Sequence record: NC_025447.1
Direction: 5' to 3' (one strand)
Source: Escherichia phage 121Q
Length of the DNA: 64,000 bases
The notes under the pieces were generated by a model that saw nothing but the letters and a program-made list of their open reading frames with translations, ran no database searches and was not told the DNA's origin. Shown one piece after another: positions 20,446-35,303 of the stretch. The position numbers and the translations under genes are program-made. The stretch's first letter is position 1. Every line of letters begins with the position of its first letter.

Positions 20446-21108
20446 ATGATGAAAACAAAATTAGGTTTGTTTTATAAAAATTATTTCGTTAAACAGCGTA
20501 AATTTATAAAAAAATATTTCTCTGGTGAGAAGTCTAGTCCTATAATTTTTAAAAGACCAAGTTATAATACTTACTTAGCTGGTGCTAAACAGTCTAAGAA
20601 ATTTATTACTCTTTTACATAAAAACAAAATTAAAGCTTCTTATGTTGAAACGAGAAGAAACTCATCAATAACTCCTGGTGATTTTATTGAGTACGGATGT
20701 TTCAATATTAAGTACAATGATAATACATACTTTATGGATATTGATTGTAATACATCCAATCTTTTTAACATTGTAGTAAATCCATTAAAACAATATAATG
20801 TTTATGGTGATTCTATTATCAAATTAATCAAAAACAAAGATAGCTTTGATTTTGAAATAAATGTTTTAGATGATAATTTTGACGAAGTACCAGTAAACCC
20901 TGAAATCTGTGATATTTTAAACAGTTTAAAAGGTAGTACCTACAATATATCATCTGATTTAATGTTTCAGTACTCATTAATCCATAAAGATATTGAAAAG
21001 TATATTGAATGCTCCAAAATTTTGAATTATCTTTACGATGAATTTAAAAAGAGTTCTAAAATAACCGCATACACTTTGTACAATATTCCTAAAATGGTGA
21101 ATCTTTGA
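20446..21108 (+). CDS. hypothetical protein
   Basis: 220-aa ORF, SD AAGGAG; preceded by CCAGTACT-TGAT-AGTACTGG hairpin. Confidence 0.55.
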   Translation: MMKTKLGLFYKNYFVKQRKFIKKYFSGEKSSPIIFKRPSYNTYLAGAKQSKKFITLLHKNKIKASYVETRRNSSITPGDFIEYGCFNIKYNDNTYFMDIDCNTSNLFNIVVNPLKQYNVYGDSIIKLIKNKDSFDFEINVLDDNFDEVPVNPEICDILNSLKGSTYNISSDLMFQYSLIHKDIEKYIECSKILNYLYDEFKKSSKITAYTLYNIPKMVNL

Positions 21109-22241
21109 CAAATACAGTACTGGCAACTCCACCGTCTGTAATATATTGTCCAGTACTGTAAATTTGTATACCATCGGTTAAGTAAGTTCTGTATAAAGTT
21201 GCTGTAACATATACGTTATTCATATTCATCTCTATTGGTAGTACACATTTGGTATAGGCCGACACATCTGTTTGTGTACCTATACCTAATTGACCTGCGT
21301 TATCGCCTGTGTTATAACCAGTTGCGTAAACACCTAATGAAGTTATAATATGATTAGAAAAATATGAATAACCCACACTGCTTCTTATTATATCACCTGG
21401 TGCTTGTGTTGTTTGTCTTAACGAAATATATGTTTGTGATGTAGAACCATTTGCTAACTGACCAAAGTATTGTCCACCACCATGATATGCAAATAATTTA
21501 TTAGTACTATTATTACTTGCTATAGCAAAAGCGAAGTAACTTGAGTTTGTTGTATAATCTTTCACCGTATAGGTATTAGTTATTTGAGAACATAACGTGT
21601 ACTTTGAATATAACGTCATGTCGGTTGTACCTACGCCTGATATTGCACCAGTATAATACAATCTCCCATCGGTTCCAATAAATCCTTGCATAAGAAAATT
21701 TGCCAGTATTTTGGATGGTGTTACTCCAGTAGGTACTGTTCCTTGTACAAATGATGAAAGTGAATCGGTACTTCTACCATTTCCCAGTTGTCCATAACTA
21801 CCATAACCCGTATTCCATATCGTGTTGTCTGTACATAATACGCTTAATGCACCTGCACTAACTGCAATTTGTTTTATTGTTTTTCCAAGTGCTGTTATTC
21901 TATCAAACACTATCTTTGCAGAAGCCCACGTTGTTGACTTATCAGTTGATAAACCGAATGATGCACCATTTCCAGCATACCACATCGTATTATCTTTCTT
22001 TTTAATTAATGTTGACTCATACCCGAACCCATAGATCTTCTACGTTTGTATTGCACAAAACCCATTTGGTTTGTGTTATAATATTACCTATACCCATTTG
22101 CCCAAACTCTTGAGAGCCTCTACTGTACAACGTACCATCTGACATAAGGGCAAAAACTGTTGTATCAGATGAAGCTATTTTTGTAACAGAAGGTTGTATG
22201 TTCTTTTTTGATGATGTGATAATTCTTCCAAAGGGTAGCAT
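21089..22241 (-). pseudogene. RCC1-like repeat paralog A, apparent frameshift
   Basis: N-terminal part (MLPFGRII leader, 22017-22241) and C-terminal part (21089-21985, GQLGNG and GQLGIG repeats) are in different frames. Confidence 0.5.
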
Positions 22242-22321
22242 TGTATCCTCCAAATGTAAATCGTTATTATATTTAGGACAAAAAAATGCCAGTACTTTAG
22301 TACTGGCATAGTTTTATAGTA
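22242..22321 (-). promoter_or_regulatory. intergenic cassette: terminator hairpin plus promoter-like and SD block
   Basis: GCCAGTACTTTAGTACTGGC hairpin with T-run, TAAATATAAT element, SD GGAGGA. Confidence 0.5.
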
Positions 22322-23431
22322 TTATTTCGGCATTGTAATTGCAGACCATGAGTTCGTGGTGATAGGACCTGGTACATACAAAAAAGAACCACAAGCATAA
22401 ATTTGATTATTACCATCAAATACTATACTAAAATGTGCACATGTGTATAATGATGATTTTTCTGGGTTGTAATTATCTAAAGTTAGTGTATTGGTGAATC
22501 TACTCAAACCACCTCCCGAACCATTTCTACCAAATTCACCAGTACTGTATATCTTTCCTTCGGTTGTTGCGTACATATTAACATATGAAGTCGAACTTGA
22601 TTTTGATATTTTATGTATCTTACTATCAATAGGAGTGGAGTTAAATGTAAATGGATATACTTGTGTGTTCGTTGTAATACCGTTACCAAGTTGACCAATA
22701 TATTGCCAACCTGCGTTGTATATATTGCTGGCTGAATAAGCAAGAGTACCAGTACTGTTACCACCAAATAGTTTAACACTTGTTAACCTGCTTACTAGTG
22801 TAGTATACTGTCCGGGACTTACGCCAAGTGAACCATACCCACTGCTCCCGCAACCGAGAAGTTCATTATTTGATGTTAATATTAATGTGTTATTCTGTGT
22901 ACCCAATATATCAAGGACTGTATTAGCTCCGGTATTAACAACTGAAACAAAAGTACTCTGAGCAGTGGAATACCCACCACCGAGTGAATAGTTACCATTC
23001 ATGCCTCTACCATAAACAATCGAACCACTAGCATCAACGTAGTGCATTGTATCTGCACCAATTGATATCATTTTAATATTAGATATATGTGGAAATGAAG
23101 AAGTAACATTTAAACCACCCAACGGAATCATAGTATTTCCTGTGCCTAATTGTGTGGTAACTCCATGCATTATGAATTCTTCACCCTTGAGATAAAGAAT
23201 ATTGTACGCACCAGCCCATGCATCAGTAACACCTTCTGAAATTAATATCCAAGTATTTCTTGTTGCTGTATTTTCAACGTTTAACTGCAAATACGTATTA
23301 ACCCCACAACCATAAAGTGAACCATCGCCATAGAGGACGTACAAATTATCAAGACCGCACAGTACTTTCTTTATCTTTGGTGCTTCAGGTGCAATATTTC
23401 CGTACTTAACCATTCTTGTGAAAGGTAACAT
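22322..23431 (-). CDS. RCC1-like repeat (beta-propeller) protein, paralog B
   Basis: leader MLPFTRMVKYGNIAP; repeated G-x-N-x2-GQLG-x-G-like motifs; SD AAGGAG only, no cassette upstream. Confidence 0.75.
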   Translation of the reverse strand: MLPFTRMVKYGNIAPEAPKIKKVLCGLDNLYVLYGDGSLYGCGVNTYLQLNVENTATRNTWILISEGVTDAWAGAYNILYLKGEEFIMHGVTTQLGTGNTMIPLGGLNVTSSFPHISNIKMISIGADTMHYVDASGSIVYGRGMNGNYSLGGGYSTAQSTFVSVVNTGANTVLDILGTQNNTLILTSNNELLGCGSSGYGSLGVSPGQYTTLVSRLTSVKLFGGNSTGTLAYSASNIYNAGWQYIGQLGNGITTNTQVYPFTFNSTPIDSKIHKISKSSSTSYVNMYATTEGKIYSTGEFGRNGSGGGLSRFTNTLTLDNYNPEKSSLYTCAHFSIVFDGNNQIYACGSFLYVPGPITTNSWSAITMPK

Positions 23432-34032: not shown

Positions 34033-34106
34033 AATTCCCTCCTTTATTCATTATACTATATTTAATACAAAAAAGAAAAGCCAGTATCAAGTACTGGCAT
34101 ATCAAA
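34033..34106 (-). promoter_or_regulatory. intergenic cassette: terminator hairpin plus promoter-like and SD block
   Basis: GCCAGTACTTGATACTGGC hairpin, GTATTAAATATAGTATAATGAATAAAGGAGG. Confidence 0.55.
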
Positions 34107-35255
34107 TCACTGCAAAAATGACATATCGACTTCGGTATAATTAAGAACGTTCTGTCCAGCAATACCTCCCATTACTACAATTGAAGCCCCACAATAATAT
34201 AACTTCGAAGTGTCAGTAAGTATAAGTGAACCAGATGGGGTGCGTACCAAATTACACGAAGTATTAAACGAAGTATATGAAGGGGTATAAGAGTACTGAT
34301 TAATATTATTACCAACACCTAATTGACCAGACGAGTTGCTTCCAGATGCATAAAGTACTTCATCACCTTTAACTATATGTGACGCCATGTTACCAACACA
34401 AGTATATAAACTATAAACTCCTGAACTCAATAATGTTGGAGTTTTGTATTGTATATCTGTAGATGAAGAAGTACCACCTGTGCCAAATTCGTTCCCGTAT
34501 TGTGCACCGAACTGTTTACCACAAGCGTACAAATTATTATCCGATTTAATAAAAAATGTACTCTGATAACTGACATTACAATCTATAACATCCGAAGAAA
34601 TCATCGTCACCCCAGTAATAGAAGTTTGATTGCCTGTACCTAACTGATAGTAATAGTTAAAACCACAACCCCATAAAGTATTATCTTCTTTTAGGTATAT
34701 GTTACCAACTGCCTTTTTAACCGAAGTTATAGTATCTACCCTTTTGAATGTGTTAAAAGAATTAATGTTTGTACCATCACCAAATGATGATAGGTTAGAG
34801 TTATTGTTAGCTCCACAACAATACAATGTACCATCGTTTGTTATCAAATTTACCTTCATATCATTAAAACTACTCATGTATTTTATATCAGAAACATTAA
34901 TACCACCTGATGTTATCCATGTAGTACAGTCCGTCCACAAAGTTTTTCTATCAGTTACACCAGTGAATGCCTTCGTGTTGCCAGTGATAAAAACTTTTCC
35001 CGTACCTTTCTCTTCGTACAATTGACAATCACTACTGTTATCTTCCAATAGAACTCGTTTAACATTCTCCGCACAAAGAATAAATTTACTCGATGCTACA
35101 CCTGTTCCAGTACCCCAATTCGTCGCAGAAGATGCATACAACTTATCAGTATAAGTATCATGAAGATACATGGAATCACTGGAATATATTTTAAAACGTC
35201 CATCATCACCAGGGGCAATATTCCCGTACTTAACCATTCTTGCAAAAGGTAACAT
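34107..35255 (-). CDS. RCC1-like repeat (beta-propeller) protein, paralog L
   Basis: start at conserved MLPFARMVKYGNIAP; close paralog of F. Confidence 0.75.
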   Translation of the reverse strand: MLPFARMVKYGNIAPGDDGRFKIYSSDSMYLHDTYTDKLYASSATNWGTGTGVASSKFILCAENVKRVLLEDNSSDCQLYEEKGTGKVFITGNTKAFTGVTDRKTLWTDCTTWITSGGINVSDIKYMSSFNDMKVNLITNDGTLYCCGANNNSNLSSFGDGTNINSFNTFKRVDTITSVKKAVGNIYLKEDNTLWGCGFNYYYQLGTGNQTSITGVTMISSDVIDCNVSYQSTFFIKSDNNLYACGKQFGAQYGNEFGTGGTSSSTDIQYKTPTLLSSGVYSLYTCVGNMASHIVKGDEVLYASGSNSSGQLGVGNNINQYSYTPSYTSFNTSCNLVRTPSGSLILTDTSKLYYCGASIVVMGGIAGQNVLNYTEVDMSFLQ

Positions 35256-35303
35256 AATTCCCTCCTTATTCATTATATCATATTTACCCAATAAAGAAAA
35301 CCC

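What the first reader, a model, noticed from the sequence alone, without database searches (positions are those of the whole stretch)
21089..35291. Minus-strand array of 12 RCC1-like beta-propeller paralogs, most as independent transcription units
Twelve consecutive genes of about 250-390 aa on the minus strand are paralogs. Eleven carry repeated G-x-N-x2-GQLG-x-G-like motifs (YGQLGNG, GGQLGVG, NGELGQG, AGQLGIG), the hallmark of RCC1-type seven-bladed propellers; the twelfth has a glycine-rich body. Ten are preceded by their own terminator hairpin and promoter-like/SD block; paralog B has only an SD, and the first gene of the array (L) lacks the upstream hairpin. Close pairs (I/K, F/L) sit next to more divergent members, indicating repeated duplication and diversification. 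A 14-kb block of stand-alone RCC1-like genes is not something I recognise from T4-like genomes; it could be a diversified set of host-interaction or adhesin-like proteins.
Basis: partly seen in the sequence, partly recalled or inferred. Interest (0 to 1): 0.9.

Follow-up and report, generated by a model that had tools for sequence, protein, structure and literature searches.

The report
Jumbo-phage array of tagged beta-propeller proteins
This is the already documented tandem array of RCC1-like beta-propeller genes of PBECO4/121Q-type jumbo coliphages; here every member, including a tail-fibre-tip-like protein, shares a 12-residue N-terminal tag, which suggests swappable surface adhesins on the virus particle rather than DNA-condensation factors.

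Summary
There are twelve consecutive minus-strand paralogs at 21089-35291. Eleven are RCC1-like propellers and one is glycine-rich. Ten carry a hairpin plus promoter cassette.

The array is not new. The window is an Asteriusvirus (PBECO4/121Q/phAPEC6-like) jumbo phage. GenBank annotates these genes as "regulator of chromosome condensation". Published work reports eleven copies in phAPEC6, eight of them detected in virions by mass spectrometry.

What I add:
- Three copies (A, C, D) are frameshifted.
- All copies share the N-terminal tag M-L-P-F-x-R-M-x-x-Y-G-N. It is disordered in AlphaFold models. It is conserved at peptide level across Rak2-like genera, and it is fused to at least four unrelated heads: RCC1 propeller, Kelch propeller, LamG, and a TNF-like/glycine-rich domain.
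- In phage CBB, eight of ten tag-bearing proteins carry the record's 'structural protein' label (five are confirmed in the paper text I read).
- Blocks of near-identity with relatives end in the cassettes, which indicates cassette-mediated gene shuffling.

Best reading (confidence about 0.55): these are late-expressed, low-copy virion-surface adhesin heads that dock through a shared peptide. The main rival is packaged internal proteins that use the tag as a capsid-targeting signal.

The parts
34107..35255 (-). Paralog L: RCC1-like propeller, 382 aa from the MLPF start.
   Evidence: PF25390 E 4.2e-22; RCC1 and RCC1_2 repeats above cutoff. 93-94% identical to copies in SP27, PBECO4 and G17, but only 53% to the best phAPEC6 copy.
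35220..35286 (-). Cassette before L: promoter variant TAAATATGATATAA, Shine-Dalgarno site and the first 12 codons. No hairpin.
32890..34032 (-). Paralog K: RCC1-like, 380 aa.
   Evidence: 100% identical to phAPEC6 gp001, 64% to window paralog I.
33997..34098 (-). Cassette before K: hairpin 34080-34098, T-run, TAAATATAGTATAA at 34051-34064, AAAGGAGG, and codons 1-12.
31706..32815 (-). Paralog J: RCC1-like, 369 aa.
32780..32881 (-). Cassette before J.
30496..31635 (-). Paralog I: RCC1-like, 379 aa.
   Evidence: 100% identical to the SP27 and PBECO4 copies, 64% to K.
31600..31699 (-). Cassette before I.
29234..30424 (-). Paralog H: RCC1-like, 396 aa.
30389..30489 (-). Cassette before H.
28425..29162 (-). 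Member G: the same N-terminal tag fused to a TNF-like plus glycine-rich domain (245 aa). Not a propeller.
29127..29227 (-). Cassette before G.
27205..28353 (-). Paralog F: RCC1-like, 382 aa. 67% identical to L. No close counterpart in phAPEC6, SP27, PBECO4 or G17.
28318..28417 (-). Cassette before F. The hairpin has one mismatch.
25983..27134 (-). Paralog E: RCC1-like, 383 aa. This is the modelled copy.
   Evidence: Pfam PF25390 E 4.8e-29. AlphaFold2 pLDDT 88, pTM 0.87, residues 1-20 at low confidence. Foldseek finds UVR8, RPGR, HERC2 and RCC1. 99.7-100% identical to phAPEC6 gp005, which was detected in virions by mass spectrometry.
27099..27201 (-). Cassette before E.
24731..25910 (-). Paralog D: RCC1-like, disrupted. 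A 68-aa N-terminal part (25704-25910) is followed by a 341-aa ORF (24731-25756) in another frame. An ATGG tandem duplication within 25717-25735 causes the shift.
   Evidence: The gene is intact (391 aa) in phAPEC6 gp006 and in SP27.
25875..25976 (-). Cassette before D.
23812..24621 (-). Paralog C: RCC1-like, truncated to 269 aa by a frameshift.
   Evidence: The same 810-nt ORF is present in G17, phAPEC6 (gp007, virion mass spectrometry, 3 peptides) and SP27.
23442..23855 (-). Out-of-frame continuation of C. It is still open and encodes the last propeller blades, ending ...LPQI.
24586..24687 (-). Cassette before C.
22322..23431 (-). Paralog B: RCC1-like, 369 aa. Only a Shine-Dalgarno site lies upstream, so it is probably co-transcribed with C.
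   Evidence: 98% identical to phAPEC6 gp009, which was detected by mass spectrometry.
21089..21985 (-). Paralog A, C-terminal ORF of 298 aa: RCC1-like, lacking the tag.
   Evidence: PBECO4 has an 897-nt CDS of the same length.
22017..22241 (-). Paralog A, N-terminal remnant in another frame. It has a degenerate tag (MLPFGRIITSSK) and the first blade.
22206..22309 (-). Degenerate cassette before A: hairpin 22288-22307 and CCTAAATATAATAAC.

Best explanation
The array is a library of accessory virion proteins of an Asteriusvirus jumbo phage.

Each protein has two modules. The first is a 12-residue N-terminal tag, M-L-P-F-x-R-M-x-x-Y-G-N, followed by a short Pro-rich linker. The tag is unstructured on its own. 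I infer that it docks the protein onto one common site of the particle. The site is most plausibly the hair-like fibres or decoration sites seen on the capsids and tails of these phages. The second module is an interchangeable ligand-binding head. Eleven heads are RCC1-like seven-bladed propellers. One is a TNF-like/glycine-rich domain of the kind that forms the receptor-binding tip of tail fibres.

Most genes have their own late-type promoter, Shine-Dalgarno site and terminator hairpin. This ~110-nt cassette, together with the first 12 codons, is nearly identical between copies. It acts as a portable recombination joint. Through it, whole head genes are duplicated, replaced or lost between related phages. 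A virion would therefore display a mixed, strain-specific set of low-copy adhesins that broaden or tune reversible binding to host-surface structures.

Shown: paralogy, folds, tag conservation, cassette structure, the mosaic pattern, and virion association of homologues (from published mass spectrometry).

Inferred: late timing, docking by the tag, surface location, and adhesin function.
For: - Tag conservation. In a 35-sequence alignment with mean column identity 23%, only M1, P3, F4 and four glycines (G95, G145, G199, G356) are invariant. Y10, G11 and N12 are at least 90% conserved.
- Tag structure. It lies outside the folded domain in both models; pLDDT is 52 and 75, and 49 and 68, for the first two ten-residue blocks.
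- Peptide-level selection. The tag is conserved in Munch, Hallingskeid, GAP32, CBB and Yen9-04. In those phages its codons vary synonymously, and the upstream DNA is not conserved.
- Unrelated heads. The tag is fused to RCC1, Kelch, LamG/ConA-like and glycine-rich heads.
- Lineage-specific tag. Glycine-rich homologues, several on ~150-kb contigs (PVP-SE1-like phages), carry a different N-terminus, such as MLEMLxxG. This is the behaviour expected of a lineage-specific adaptor.
- Virion association. phAPEC6 mass spectrometry found gp003, 005, 006, 007, 009, 010, 549 and 551. GAP32_001 is a structural protein by mass spectrometry.
- CBB. Eight of ten tag-bearing CBB proteins are annotated 'structural protein' in the record: CBB_144, 536, 537, 548, 549, 551, 552, 553. 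The paper text I read names 144, 536, 537, 551 and 552 as mass-spectrometry hits.
- Truncated copy. The truncated 269-aa copy (gp007) is still found in virions. That fits incorporation through the N-terminus.
- Timing. phAPEC6 structural genes are preceded by TATAAATA or TAAATA. The cassette contains TTAAATA about 32 nt before the ATG. The same TAAATA...TATAAT element precedes array genes in Munch, GAP32 and Hallingskeid.
- Selection. dN/dS is 0.18-0.42 between orthologues, so the genes are functional. Three copies are frameshifted, so individual members are dispensable.
- Shuffling. Identity to a given relative jumps from 100% to 50-65% between adjacent genes. By my reading, 25 of 27 ends of blocks with at least 93% identity fall in the cassettes. 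The cassettes make up about 10% of the array.
- Precedent. A 29-residue conserved N-terminal peptide is necessary for loading a second receptor-binding protein onto Klebsiella podophage KP32. It can also load a foreign head (PMC13352976).
Against: - No direct localisation exists, and the docking partner is unknown.
- Mass-spectrometry counts are low: 1-5 unique peptides and 3-17% coverage. The phAPEC6 list also contains likely non-structural proteins such as a topoisomerase subunit and PhoH, so some hits may be carry-over.
- RCC1-like propellers are not established phage receptor-binding domains, and no ligand is known.
- The promoter assignment rests on motif resemblance only. No transcript data were available.
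- The very high DNA identity of the cassette within this genome could partly reflect gene conversion rather than constraint on the peptide. The cross-genus data argue for peptide constraint.
- The fibres seen by electron microscopy are long (about 120 nm in CBB). These globular 25-42 kDa proteins cannot form them. They could only decorate or tip them.
Confidence: 0.55

Rival explanations
1. Packaged internal head proteins. The N-terminal tag is a capsid-targeting sequence, like that of the T4 internal proteins IPI-III. It directs a variable set of proteins into the prohead or inner body. They are then ejected with the DNA, for example as anti-defence factors.
For: - A short N-terminal sequence shared by otherwise unrelated proteins, in a highly variable locus where each gene has its own promoter, resembles the T4 internal-protein locus (my own knowledge of T4 biology).
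- 121Q and phAPEC6 have an inner body.
- Homologues are found in virions at low abundance.
- The variability between close relatives would also fit an arms-race cargo.
Against: - There is no conserved L/I-x-E prohead-protease site at or after the tag. L, J, H, F and E have no Glu in their first 30 residues. T4-type targeting sequences end in such a site.
- Rigid 40-kDa propellers would have to unfold to pass through the tail tube.
Confidence: 0.17
2. Non-structural intracellular proteins, such as RCC1-like or BLIP-II-like binders that inhibit or hijack host proteins. Their detection in virion preparations would be contamination.
For: - RCC1-like domains are general protein-protein interaction scaffolds.
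- Mass-spectrometry peptide counts are low, and the same data sets include obvious non-structural proteins.
Against: - Three independent proteomes (phAPEC6, GAP32, CBB) detect tag-bearing proteins. CBB_144 was detected with 34% coverage.
- The promoter motif is of the late type.
- Member G has a fibre-tip fold.
Confidence: 0.1
3. DNA-condensation or inner-body organisers, as speculated in the phAPEC6 paper and implied by the GenBank product names.
For: - The name of the eukaryotic founder protein RCC1.
Against: - RCC1 is the guanine-nucleotide exchange factor for Ran and binds histones, not DNA. Bacteria have neither Ran nor histones (established knowledge).
- The closest folds found are UVR8, RPGR and HERC2 RCC1-like domains, which are protein-binding modules.
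- The family shares its tag with Kelch, LamG and fibre-tip heads, which have no link to DNA.
- Individual members are frameshifted or absent in viable relatives.
- CBB has no RCC1 genes.
Confidence: 0.04

Closest known systems
RCC1-like gene arrays of Asteriusvirus and other Rak2-like jumbo phages (121Q_234-248; PBECO4; phAPEC6 gp001-010 plus gp549 and gp551; Munch 539-550)
   Same: Same genes, order and annotation. Individual copies are 93-100% identical to copies in phAPEC6, SP27, PBECO4 and G17. The arrays are described in PMC7247149 and PMC5259590.
   Different: This window has its own combination. It holds both the K and I variants, which occur singly in the four relatives compared. It has an extra L-like copy, F. 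It also has a private frameshift in D.
Conserved N-terminal docking peptide of secondary receptor-binding proteins in branched systems (Klebsiella phage KP32 gp38 with the gp37 branching domain)
   Same: A short N-terminal peptide is shared by proteins with unrelated heads. In KP32 this peptide has been shown to be required for virion incorporation, and it can load a foreign head (PMC13352976).
   Different: - There is no sequence similarity.
- The tag here is 12 residues rather than 29.
- The heads are mostly monomer-type propellers rather than trimeric tailspikes.
- Twelve or more clients share the tag, rather than one.
- The partner and site are unknown.
Pam3 gp24-type tail-fibre tip (TNF-like plus glycine-rich domain), also S16 gp38 and the ALK/LTK glycine-rich domain
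   Different: - G lacks the N-terminal alpha-helical baseplate-docking domain and has the MLPF tag instead.
- No chaperone gene lies next to it.
- There is no detectable sequence match to any chain in the PDB.
PeSL promoter-terminator cassettes of T4-like phages
   Same: Conserved composite stem-loop plus promoter motifs flank variable genes and mark the borders of gene gain, loss and replacement between close relatives (PMC2839356, PMC4122927; compare).
   Different: - PeSLs carry early promoters and flank unrelated ORFans in hyperplastic regions.
- Here the promoter looks late, the cassette extends 12 codons into the gene, and the cargo is a single family.
T4 internal proteins with a capsid-targeting sequence
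   Same: A short conserved N-terminal sequence on otherwise unrelated proteins, in a variable locus, with the proteins packaged in virions.
   Different: There is no conserved protease cleavage site after the tag. The head folds point to external binding functions.
Eukaryotic RCC1 and RCC1-like domains (UVR8, RPGR, HERC1/2) and bacterial BLIP-II
   Same: A seven-bladed propeller built from GQLG-type repeats.
   Different: Sequence identity is 12-19%. There is no Ran or chromatin context. The phage proteins are single-domain with a phage-specific N-terminal tag.

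Membership tests
RCC1-like domain (RLD) superfamily | Repeated ~50-residue RCC1 repeats detectable by profile | tested here: met
   Eleven of twelve proteins hit PF25390 (E 2.6e-9 to 4.8e-29), PF00415 or PF13540. The repeat models are above their curated cutoffs in most copies. PF25390 is always below its 150-bit cutoff.
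RCC1-like domain (RLD) superfamily | Seven-bladed beta-propeller fold | tested here: met
   Tested on paralog E only. AlphaFold2 pLDDT 88. Foldseek TM 0.76 to UVR8, and E 1e-13 to 1e-20 to RPGR, HERC2 and RCC1.
RCC1 proper (regulator of chromosome condensation, the Ran exchange factor) | Guanine-nucleotide exchange on Ran and binding to nucleosomes | not testable with these tools
   There is no Ran or histone in the host. Identity to RCC1 is about 16%. The product name is inherited from the domain, not from any test.
Asteriusvirus / Rak2-like phage RCC1 paralog family (phrog_4219) | Full-length profile match and synteny with the arrays of 121Q, PBECO4 and phAPEC6 | tested here: met
   phrog_4219 E 1e-104 to 1e-115. 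93-100% identical orthologues sit in the same array position.
Docking-peptide receptor-binding proteins (KP32-type branched systems) | A short conserved N-terminal peptide shared by proteins with unrelated distal domains | tested here: met
Docking-peptide receptor-binding proteins (KP32-type branched systems) | A partner protein with a branching (T4 gp10-like) domain that binds the peptide | not tested
   No partner was searched for. This needs complex prediction or pull-down experiments.
Docking-peptide receptor-binding proteins (KP32-type branched systems) | The peptide is required for incorporation into the virion | not testable with these tools
   Indirect evidence only: the truncated 269-aa copy that keeps the tag is detected in phAPEC6 virions.
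T4-type internal proteins with a capsid-targeting sequence | The N-terminal targeting peptide ends in a prohead-protease site (L/I-x-E) | tested here: not met
   No conserved Glu follows the tag. Five window copies have no Glu in residues 1-30.
T4-type internal proteins with a capsid-targeting sequence | Location inside the capsid and ejection with the DNA | not testable with these tools
   Mass spectrometry shows virion association but not location.
Pam3 gp24-like fibre tip (member G only) | TNF-like beta-sandwich plus a glycine-rich lattice domain | tested here: met
Pam3 gp24-like fibre tip (member G only) | An N-terminal alpha-helical trimerisation and baseplate-docking domain, and an adjacent chaperone gene | tested here: not met
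   Residues 1-19 are an unstructured tag. The 71-nt gap after G holds only the next cassette.
PeSL-type mobile regulatory cassettes | A conserved stem-loop plus promoter flanks variable genes and coincides with indel or replacement borders between relatives | tested here: met
   Ten hairpin plus promoter cassettes. By my reading, 25 of 27 homology-block ends lie in cassettes.
PeSL-type mobile regulatory cassettes | The promoter is of the early (sigma-70) class | tested here: inconclusive
   The cassette has a TATAAT hexamer but no -35 element at 16-18 nt. It also has the TAAATA late-type core found before phAPEC6 structural genes. No expression data were available.

The most novel reading that the evidence does not exclude
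Rak2-like jumbo phages use a universal 12-residue N-terminal 'address tag' (MLPFxRMxxYGN). It loads a combinatorial, strain-specific library of unrelated ligand-binding heads onto one class of sites on the virion, perhaps the enigmatic hair-like fibres. The heads are RCC1 and Kelch propellers, LamG lectin-like domains and a fibre-tip glycine-rich domain. Promoter-terminator-tag cassettes act as the recombination joints that shuffle the library. I found no description of this tag in the papers I searched.
Probability: 0.4. Interest if true: 0.65.

Novelty: already known. Interest (0 to 1): 0.4.

Why it matters
The array itself is a documented hallmark of PBECO4/121Q-type phages, so the finding as written adds nothing new. 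What could matter is the reinterpretation.

- The 'DNA condensation protein' annotation that has spread through dozens of GenBank records is probably wrong.
- These genes may explain what decorates the unusual hairy fibres of these phages, and why closely related isolates differ in host interaction.
- A short tag that loads arbitrary heads onto a 350-kb phage particle would be a practical handle for phage engineering and display.
- The cassette-bounded shuffling is a clean example of how jumbo-phage genomes expand through tandem paralogs.

Tried and rejected
- Programmed frameshifting in gene C. The shift site (CAAAAT) is not slippery. The four phages that share the frameshift are identical across the region, so selection on the downstream frame cannot be judged. 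I treat it as a shared mutation.
- Sequencing error as the cause of all three frameshifts. I rejected this for C (four independently deposited genomes share the frameshift) and for A (PBECO4 has the same-length 897-nt CDS). It remains possible for the 4-bp duplication in D.
- The tag as the closing 'velcro' strand of the propeller. I rejected this because the tag is outside the fold in the model and also occurs on non-propeller proteins.
- Pervasive positive selection. Gene-wide dN/dS is 0.18-0.42. Site-level tests were not possible with so few orthologues.
- Literature searches for a high-resolution structure of a Rak2-like virion that localises these proteins found none. The phiKp24 structure paper does not mention them. 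The Sharanji paper and the jumbo-phage comparative review do not discuss them.
- tRNA genes in the window: none.

Full report
**1. Observation.**

ORF listing shows twelve consecutive minus-strand ORFs between 21089 and 35291. GC skew is negative across the block, as expected for minus-strand transcription.

Pfam assigns eleven of them to RCC1-like models. PF25390 gives E 2.6e-9 to 4.8e-29, below its strict 150-bit cutoff. The RCC1 and RCC1_2 repeat models are above their cutoffs in most copies.

The protein at 28425-29180 is glycine-rich and has no Pfam hit.

The regulatory description also holds:
- There are nine exact copies of GTATTAAATATAGTATAA, against 0.63 expected by chance.
- There are ten GCCAGTA...TACTGGC hairpins with T-runs.
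- Together these give the cassette hairpin, T-run, TAAATATAGTATAAT, AAAGGAGG, ATG before K, J, I, H, G, F, E, D and C.
- Gene A has a degenerate version, L has only a promoter variant, and B has only a Shine-Dalgarno site.
- I/K are 64% identical and L/F are 67% identical.

**2. Corrections to the anatomy.**

A regular-expression scan of all six frames finds eleven exact copies of M-L-P-F-x-R-M-[VIM]-[KN]-Y-G-N in the 64-kb window. All of them are at the true starts of array genes. A degenerate twelfth copy, MLPFGRIITSSK, starts at 22241.

Three 'short' genes are frameshifted:
- **A:** the N-terminal 74 codons (22017-22241) are in a different frame from the 298-aa ORF.
- **C:** it stops after 269 aa, but the remaining blades continue, still open, in another frame (23442-23855).
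- **D:** it has a 4-bp ATGG tandem duplication relative to phAPEC6 gp006 and SP27.

The C truncation is identical in G17, phAPEC6 and SP27. The 897-nt form of A is also present in PBECO4. Both are therefore real and shared. The D lesion is private to this genome, or is an assembly error.

**3. Identity of the genome and prior knowledge.**

Megablast places the window in Asteriusvirus, the ~350-kb E. coli jumbo myoviruses that include PBECO4, SP27, phAPEC6 and G17. No record covers more than 41% of the array in one place, and 5-9 separate pieces match per record. GenBank calls the genes 'regulator of chromosome condensation', 'putative DNA condensation protein', 'HERC1' and similar names.

- Its virion proteome contains gp003, 005, 006, 007, 009, 010, 549 and 551. 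All are array members, each with 1-5 unique peptides.
- The CBB paper lists the copies in 121Q and PBECO4. It notes that GAP32_001 is a structural protein by mass spectrometry (PMC5259590).

The array as such is therefore already known. Its function is not.

**4. Folds.**

An AlphaFold2 model of paralog E was built from a 35-sequence alignment of paralogs from five genera. It has pLDDT 88 and pTM 0.87. Foldseek matches it to UVR8 (TM about 0.76), RPGR, HERC1/2 RCC1-like domains and RCC1 itself. Residues 1-20 have low confidence and lie outside the propeller.

Member G was modelled from 30 homologues and has pLDDT 92. Again the first ~19 residues are unstructured.

[quoted passage not shown] A separate N-terminal helical domain docks the fibre to the baseplate (PMC9608196). 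G has the tip but not that docking domain. It has the MLPF tag instead.

**5. The N-terminal tag is the unifying feature.**

In the 35-sequence alignment the mean column identity is 23%. The invariant positions are M1, P3, F4 and four glycines (G95, G145, G199, G356). Y10, G11 and N12 are at least 90% conserved.

The tag recurs in other genera:
- Salmonella phage Munch (MIPFARILxYGN, 12 genes);
- Erwinia phage Hallingskeid (8 genes);
- Yersinia phage fHe-Yen9-04;
- Cronobacter phage GAP32 (3 genes);
- Pectobacterium phage CBB.

In those phages many genes are translationally coupled and lack the promoter cassette. The upstream DNA is unrelated, and the tag codons differ synonymously (CCT/CCA/CCG, TTT/TTC, AGA/AGG, TAC/TAT, GGN, AAT/AAC). 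The peptide itself is therefore under selection.

The tag is fused to at least four unrelated heads: the RCC1 propeller, the Kelch propeller (Hallingskeid CDS0073; CBB_550, 552, 554), LamG/ConA-like domains (GAP32_002; CBB_548 and 551; phrog_6011 'virion structural protein'), and the glycine-rich domain (window G, Munch_544, CBB_144).

Several glycine-rich homologues, some on ~150-kb contigs (PVP-SE1-like phages), carry a different conserved N-terminus (MLEMLxxG or MIELL). That is the pattern expected of a lineage-specific attachment module.

**6. Virion association.**

Besides phAPEC6 and GAP32, phage CBB is informative. It has hair-like tail appendages and no RCC1 genes. Its ten tag-bearing proteins are CBB_144, 536, 537 and 548-554. 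Eight of them carry the 'structural protein' label in the record. The paper text I read names 144, 536, 537, 551 and 552 as identified by mass spectrometry, with 34% coverage for CBB_144.

The CBB hairs are described as ending in 'tiny terminal globular structures'. In phAPEC6 the truncated 269-aa C orthologue gp007, which keeps the tag but not a complete propeller, is still detected in virions. This fits incorporation through the N-terminus.

**7. Expression.**

phAPEC6 encodes a T4 gp55-like late sigma factor. Its major head, scaffold and other structural genes are preceded by TATAAATA, or by a TAAATA core for the baseplate and several other genes.

The array cassette has TTAAATA about 32 nt upstream of the ATG. 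The same TAAATA...TATA(A/T)T element precedes array genes in Munch, GAP32 and Hallingskeid. Late transcription is therefore plausible but unproven.

**8. Evolution.**

Orthologue pairs give dN/dS of 0.18-0.42. The genes are maintained by purifying selection, while individual copies can be lost, as the frameshifts show.

For K versus I, dS is 1.15 across the gene, yet only one synonymous difference lies in the first 12 codons. The cassette plus tag is therefore homogenised within the genome.

Identity to any one relative changes abruptly between adjacent genes. For phAPEC6 the values are L 53%, K 100%, J 99%, I 64%, H 87%, G 100%, F 51%, E 100%.

The window carries both K and I. In the stretches of the four relatives that I fetched, phAPEC6 and G17 have only K and SP27 and PBECO4 have only I.

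By my reading, 25 of 27 ends of blocks with at least 93% identity lie between the hairpin and about codon 16. This is the signature of cassette-bounded gene replacement and duplication. It is analogous to the PeSL promoter-terminator cassettes of T4-like phages (PMC2839356, PMC4122927).

Some subfamilies are old. The K/I type, ending ...LPWK, has counterparts in Munch and Hallingskeid at 31-40% identity.

**9. Mechanism proposed.**

The proteins are late-expressed, low-copy accessory virion proteins. Each consists of a disordered N-terminal docking tag plus an interchangeable binding head. The tag attaches them to a common site on the particle. The heads provide a mixed, strain-specific set of adhesins.

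The closest experimentally established parallel is the conserved N-terminal peptide of the secondary receptor-binding protein of Klebsiella phage KP32. That peptide is required for virion incorporation and can load a foreign head (PMC13352976).

Steps shown here: folds, tag conservation, cassette structure and the mosaic pattern. Virion presence of homologues comes from published mass spectrometry. Steps inferred: docking by the tag, external location, ligand binding and late timing.

**10. Rivals.**

The strongest rival is a T4-like capsid-targeting sequence that directs variable cargo into the head. It is weakened by the absence of any conserved protease site after the tag, and by the external-binding character of the heads, but it is not excluded.

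Contamination of the proteomes and the published 'DNA condensation' idea are less likely, for the reasons given in the rival entries.

**11. Verdict.**

The feature, however, is an already described and annotated hallmark of this phage group, so novelty is low.

The shared tag on multiple head types, the fibre-tip fold of the twelfth member and the cassette-bounded shuffling are, as far as my literature searches show, not described. They give a concrete and testable alternative to the 'DNA condensation' label.

Noticed in passing
window 35358-39194 (+ strand): There is a second tandem paralog array, transcribed divergently from the RCC1 array. It holds about 18 small ORFs of 59-81 aa with a shared pattern (M[HN]KE[YF]Y...KLP... 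and a C-terminal [IL]LLIY[KR]Y). A 223-aa ORF at 36811-37482 interrupts it. [quoted passage not shown] The G17_00054-00069 and 121Q_249-265 genes look like counterparts.
   Followed up: partly
window 19299-20404 (+ strand): Three adjacent ORFs of 122, 141 and 123 aa all appear to be multi-pass membrane proteins of similar layout, so they may be paralogs. phAPEC6 gp012c-017c and the CBB 'putative membrane protein' genes CBB_539-546 occupy the equivalent position next to the tag-bearing genes.
   Followed up: no
L012 (phage CBB, KU574722.1 344368-355464) and L003 6001-6765: CBB has no RCC1 genes. It does have ten proteins that start MLPF..Y[GA]N, with Kelch, LamG or glycine-rich heads. Eight of them are annotated 'structural protein' in the record. 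The tag therefore defines a wider virion-protein superfamily than the RCC1 array.
   Followed up: yes
window 23442-23855 and 23812-24621; L001 7547-8356 (phAPEC6 gp007): The frameshifted 269-aa copy C is identical in four phages, and its downstream frame is still open. The truncated product was detected in phAPEC6 virions (3 peptides, 17.5% coverage). It is unresolved whether the downstream part is ever translated.
   Followed up: partly
window 25717-25735: The sequence ATGGATGGATGG occurs here, against ATGGATGG in phAPEC6 and SP27. This 4-bp tandem duplication frameshifts paralog D. It could be a genuine slippage mutation or an assembly error.
   Followed up: yes
proteins P0005-P0035, P0061, P0093: Homologues of the glycine-rich head, several on ~150-kb contigs (PVP-SE1-like phages and metagenomic contigs), carry a different conserved N-terminus: MLEMLxxG, MIELLAISG or MFEMML. 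This may be the equivalent docking tag of that lineage.
   Followed up: no
window 40001-46000 versus 18001-22000: There is a composition step. G+C rises from about 0.31-0.35 to about 0.39-0.40 beyond roughly 40 kb, and GC skew turns positive again. The genes there are unrelated small ORFs on the + strand.
   Followed up: no
window 20411-20432 (+ strand): A related hairpin, TCCAGTACTTGATAGTACTGGA, sits after the + strand gene that ends at 20404. The same stem motif is therefore used as a terminator outside the array.
   Followed up: no
L005 4333-4458 (GAP32, start of record): A third tag-bearing ORF (MLPFVKMIKYGNILPP...) runs off the end of the GAP32 record, beside GAP32_001 and GAP32_002. GAP32 therefore has more tag-bearing genes than the single 'RCC1-like protein' reported.
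   Followed up: no
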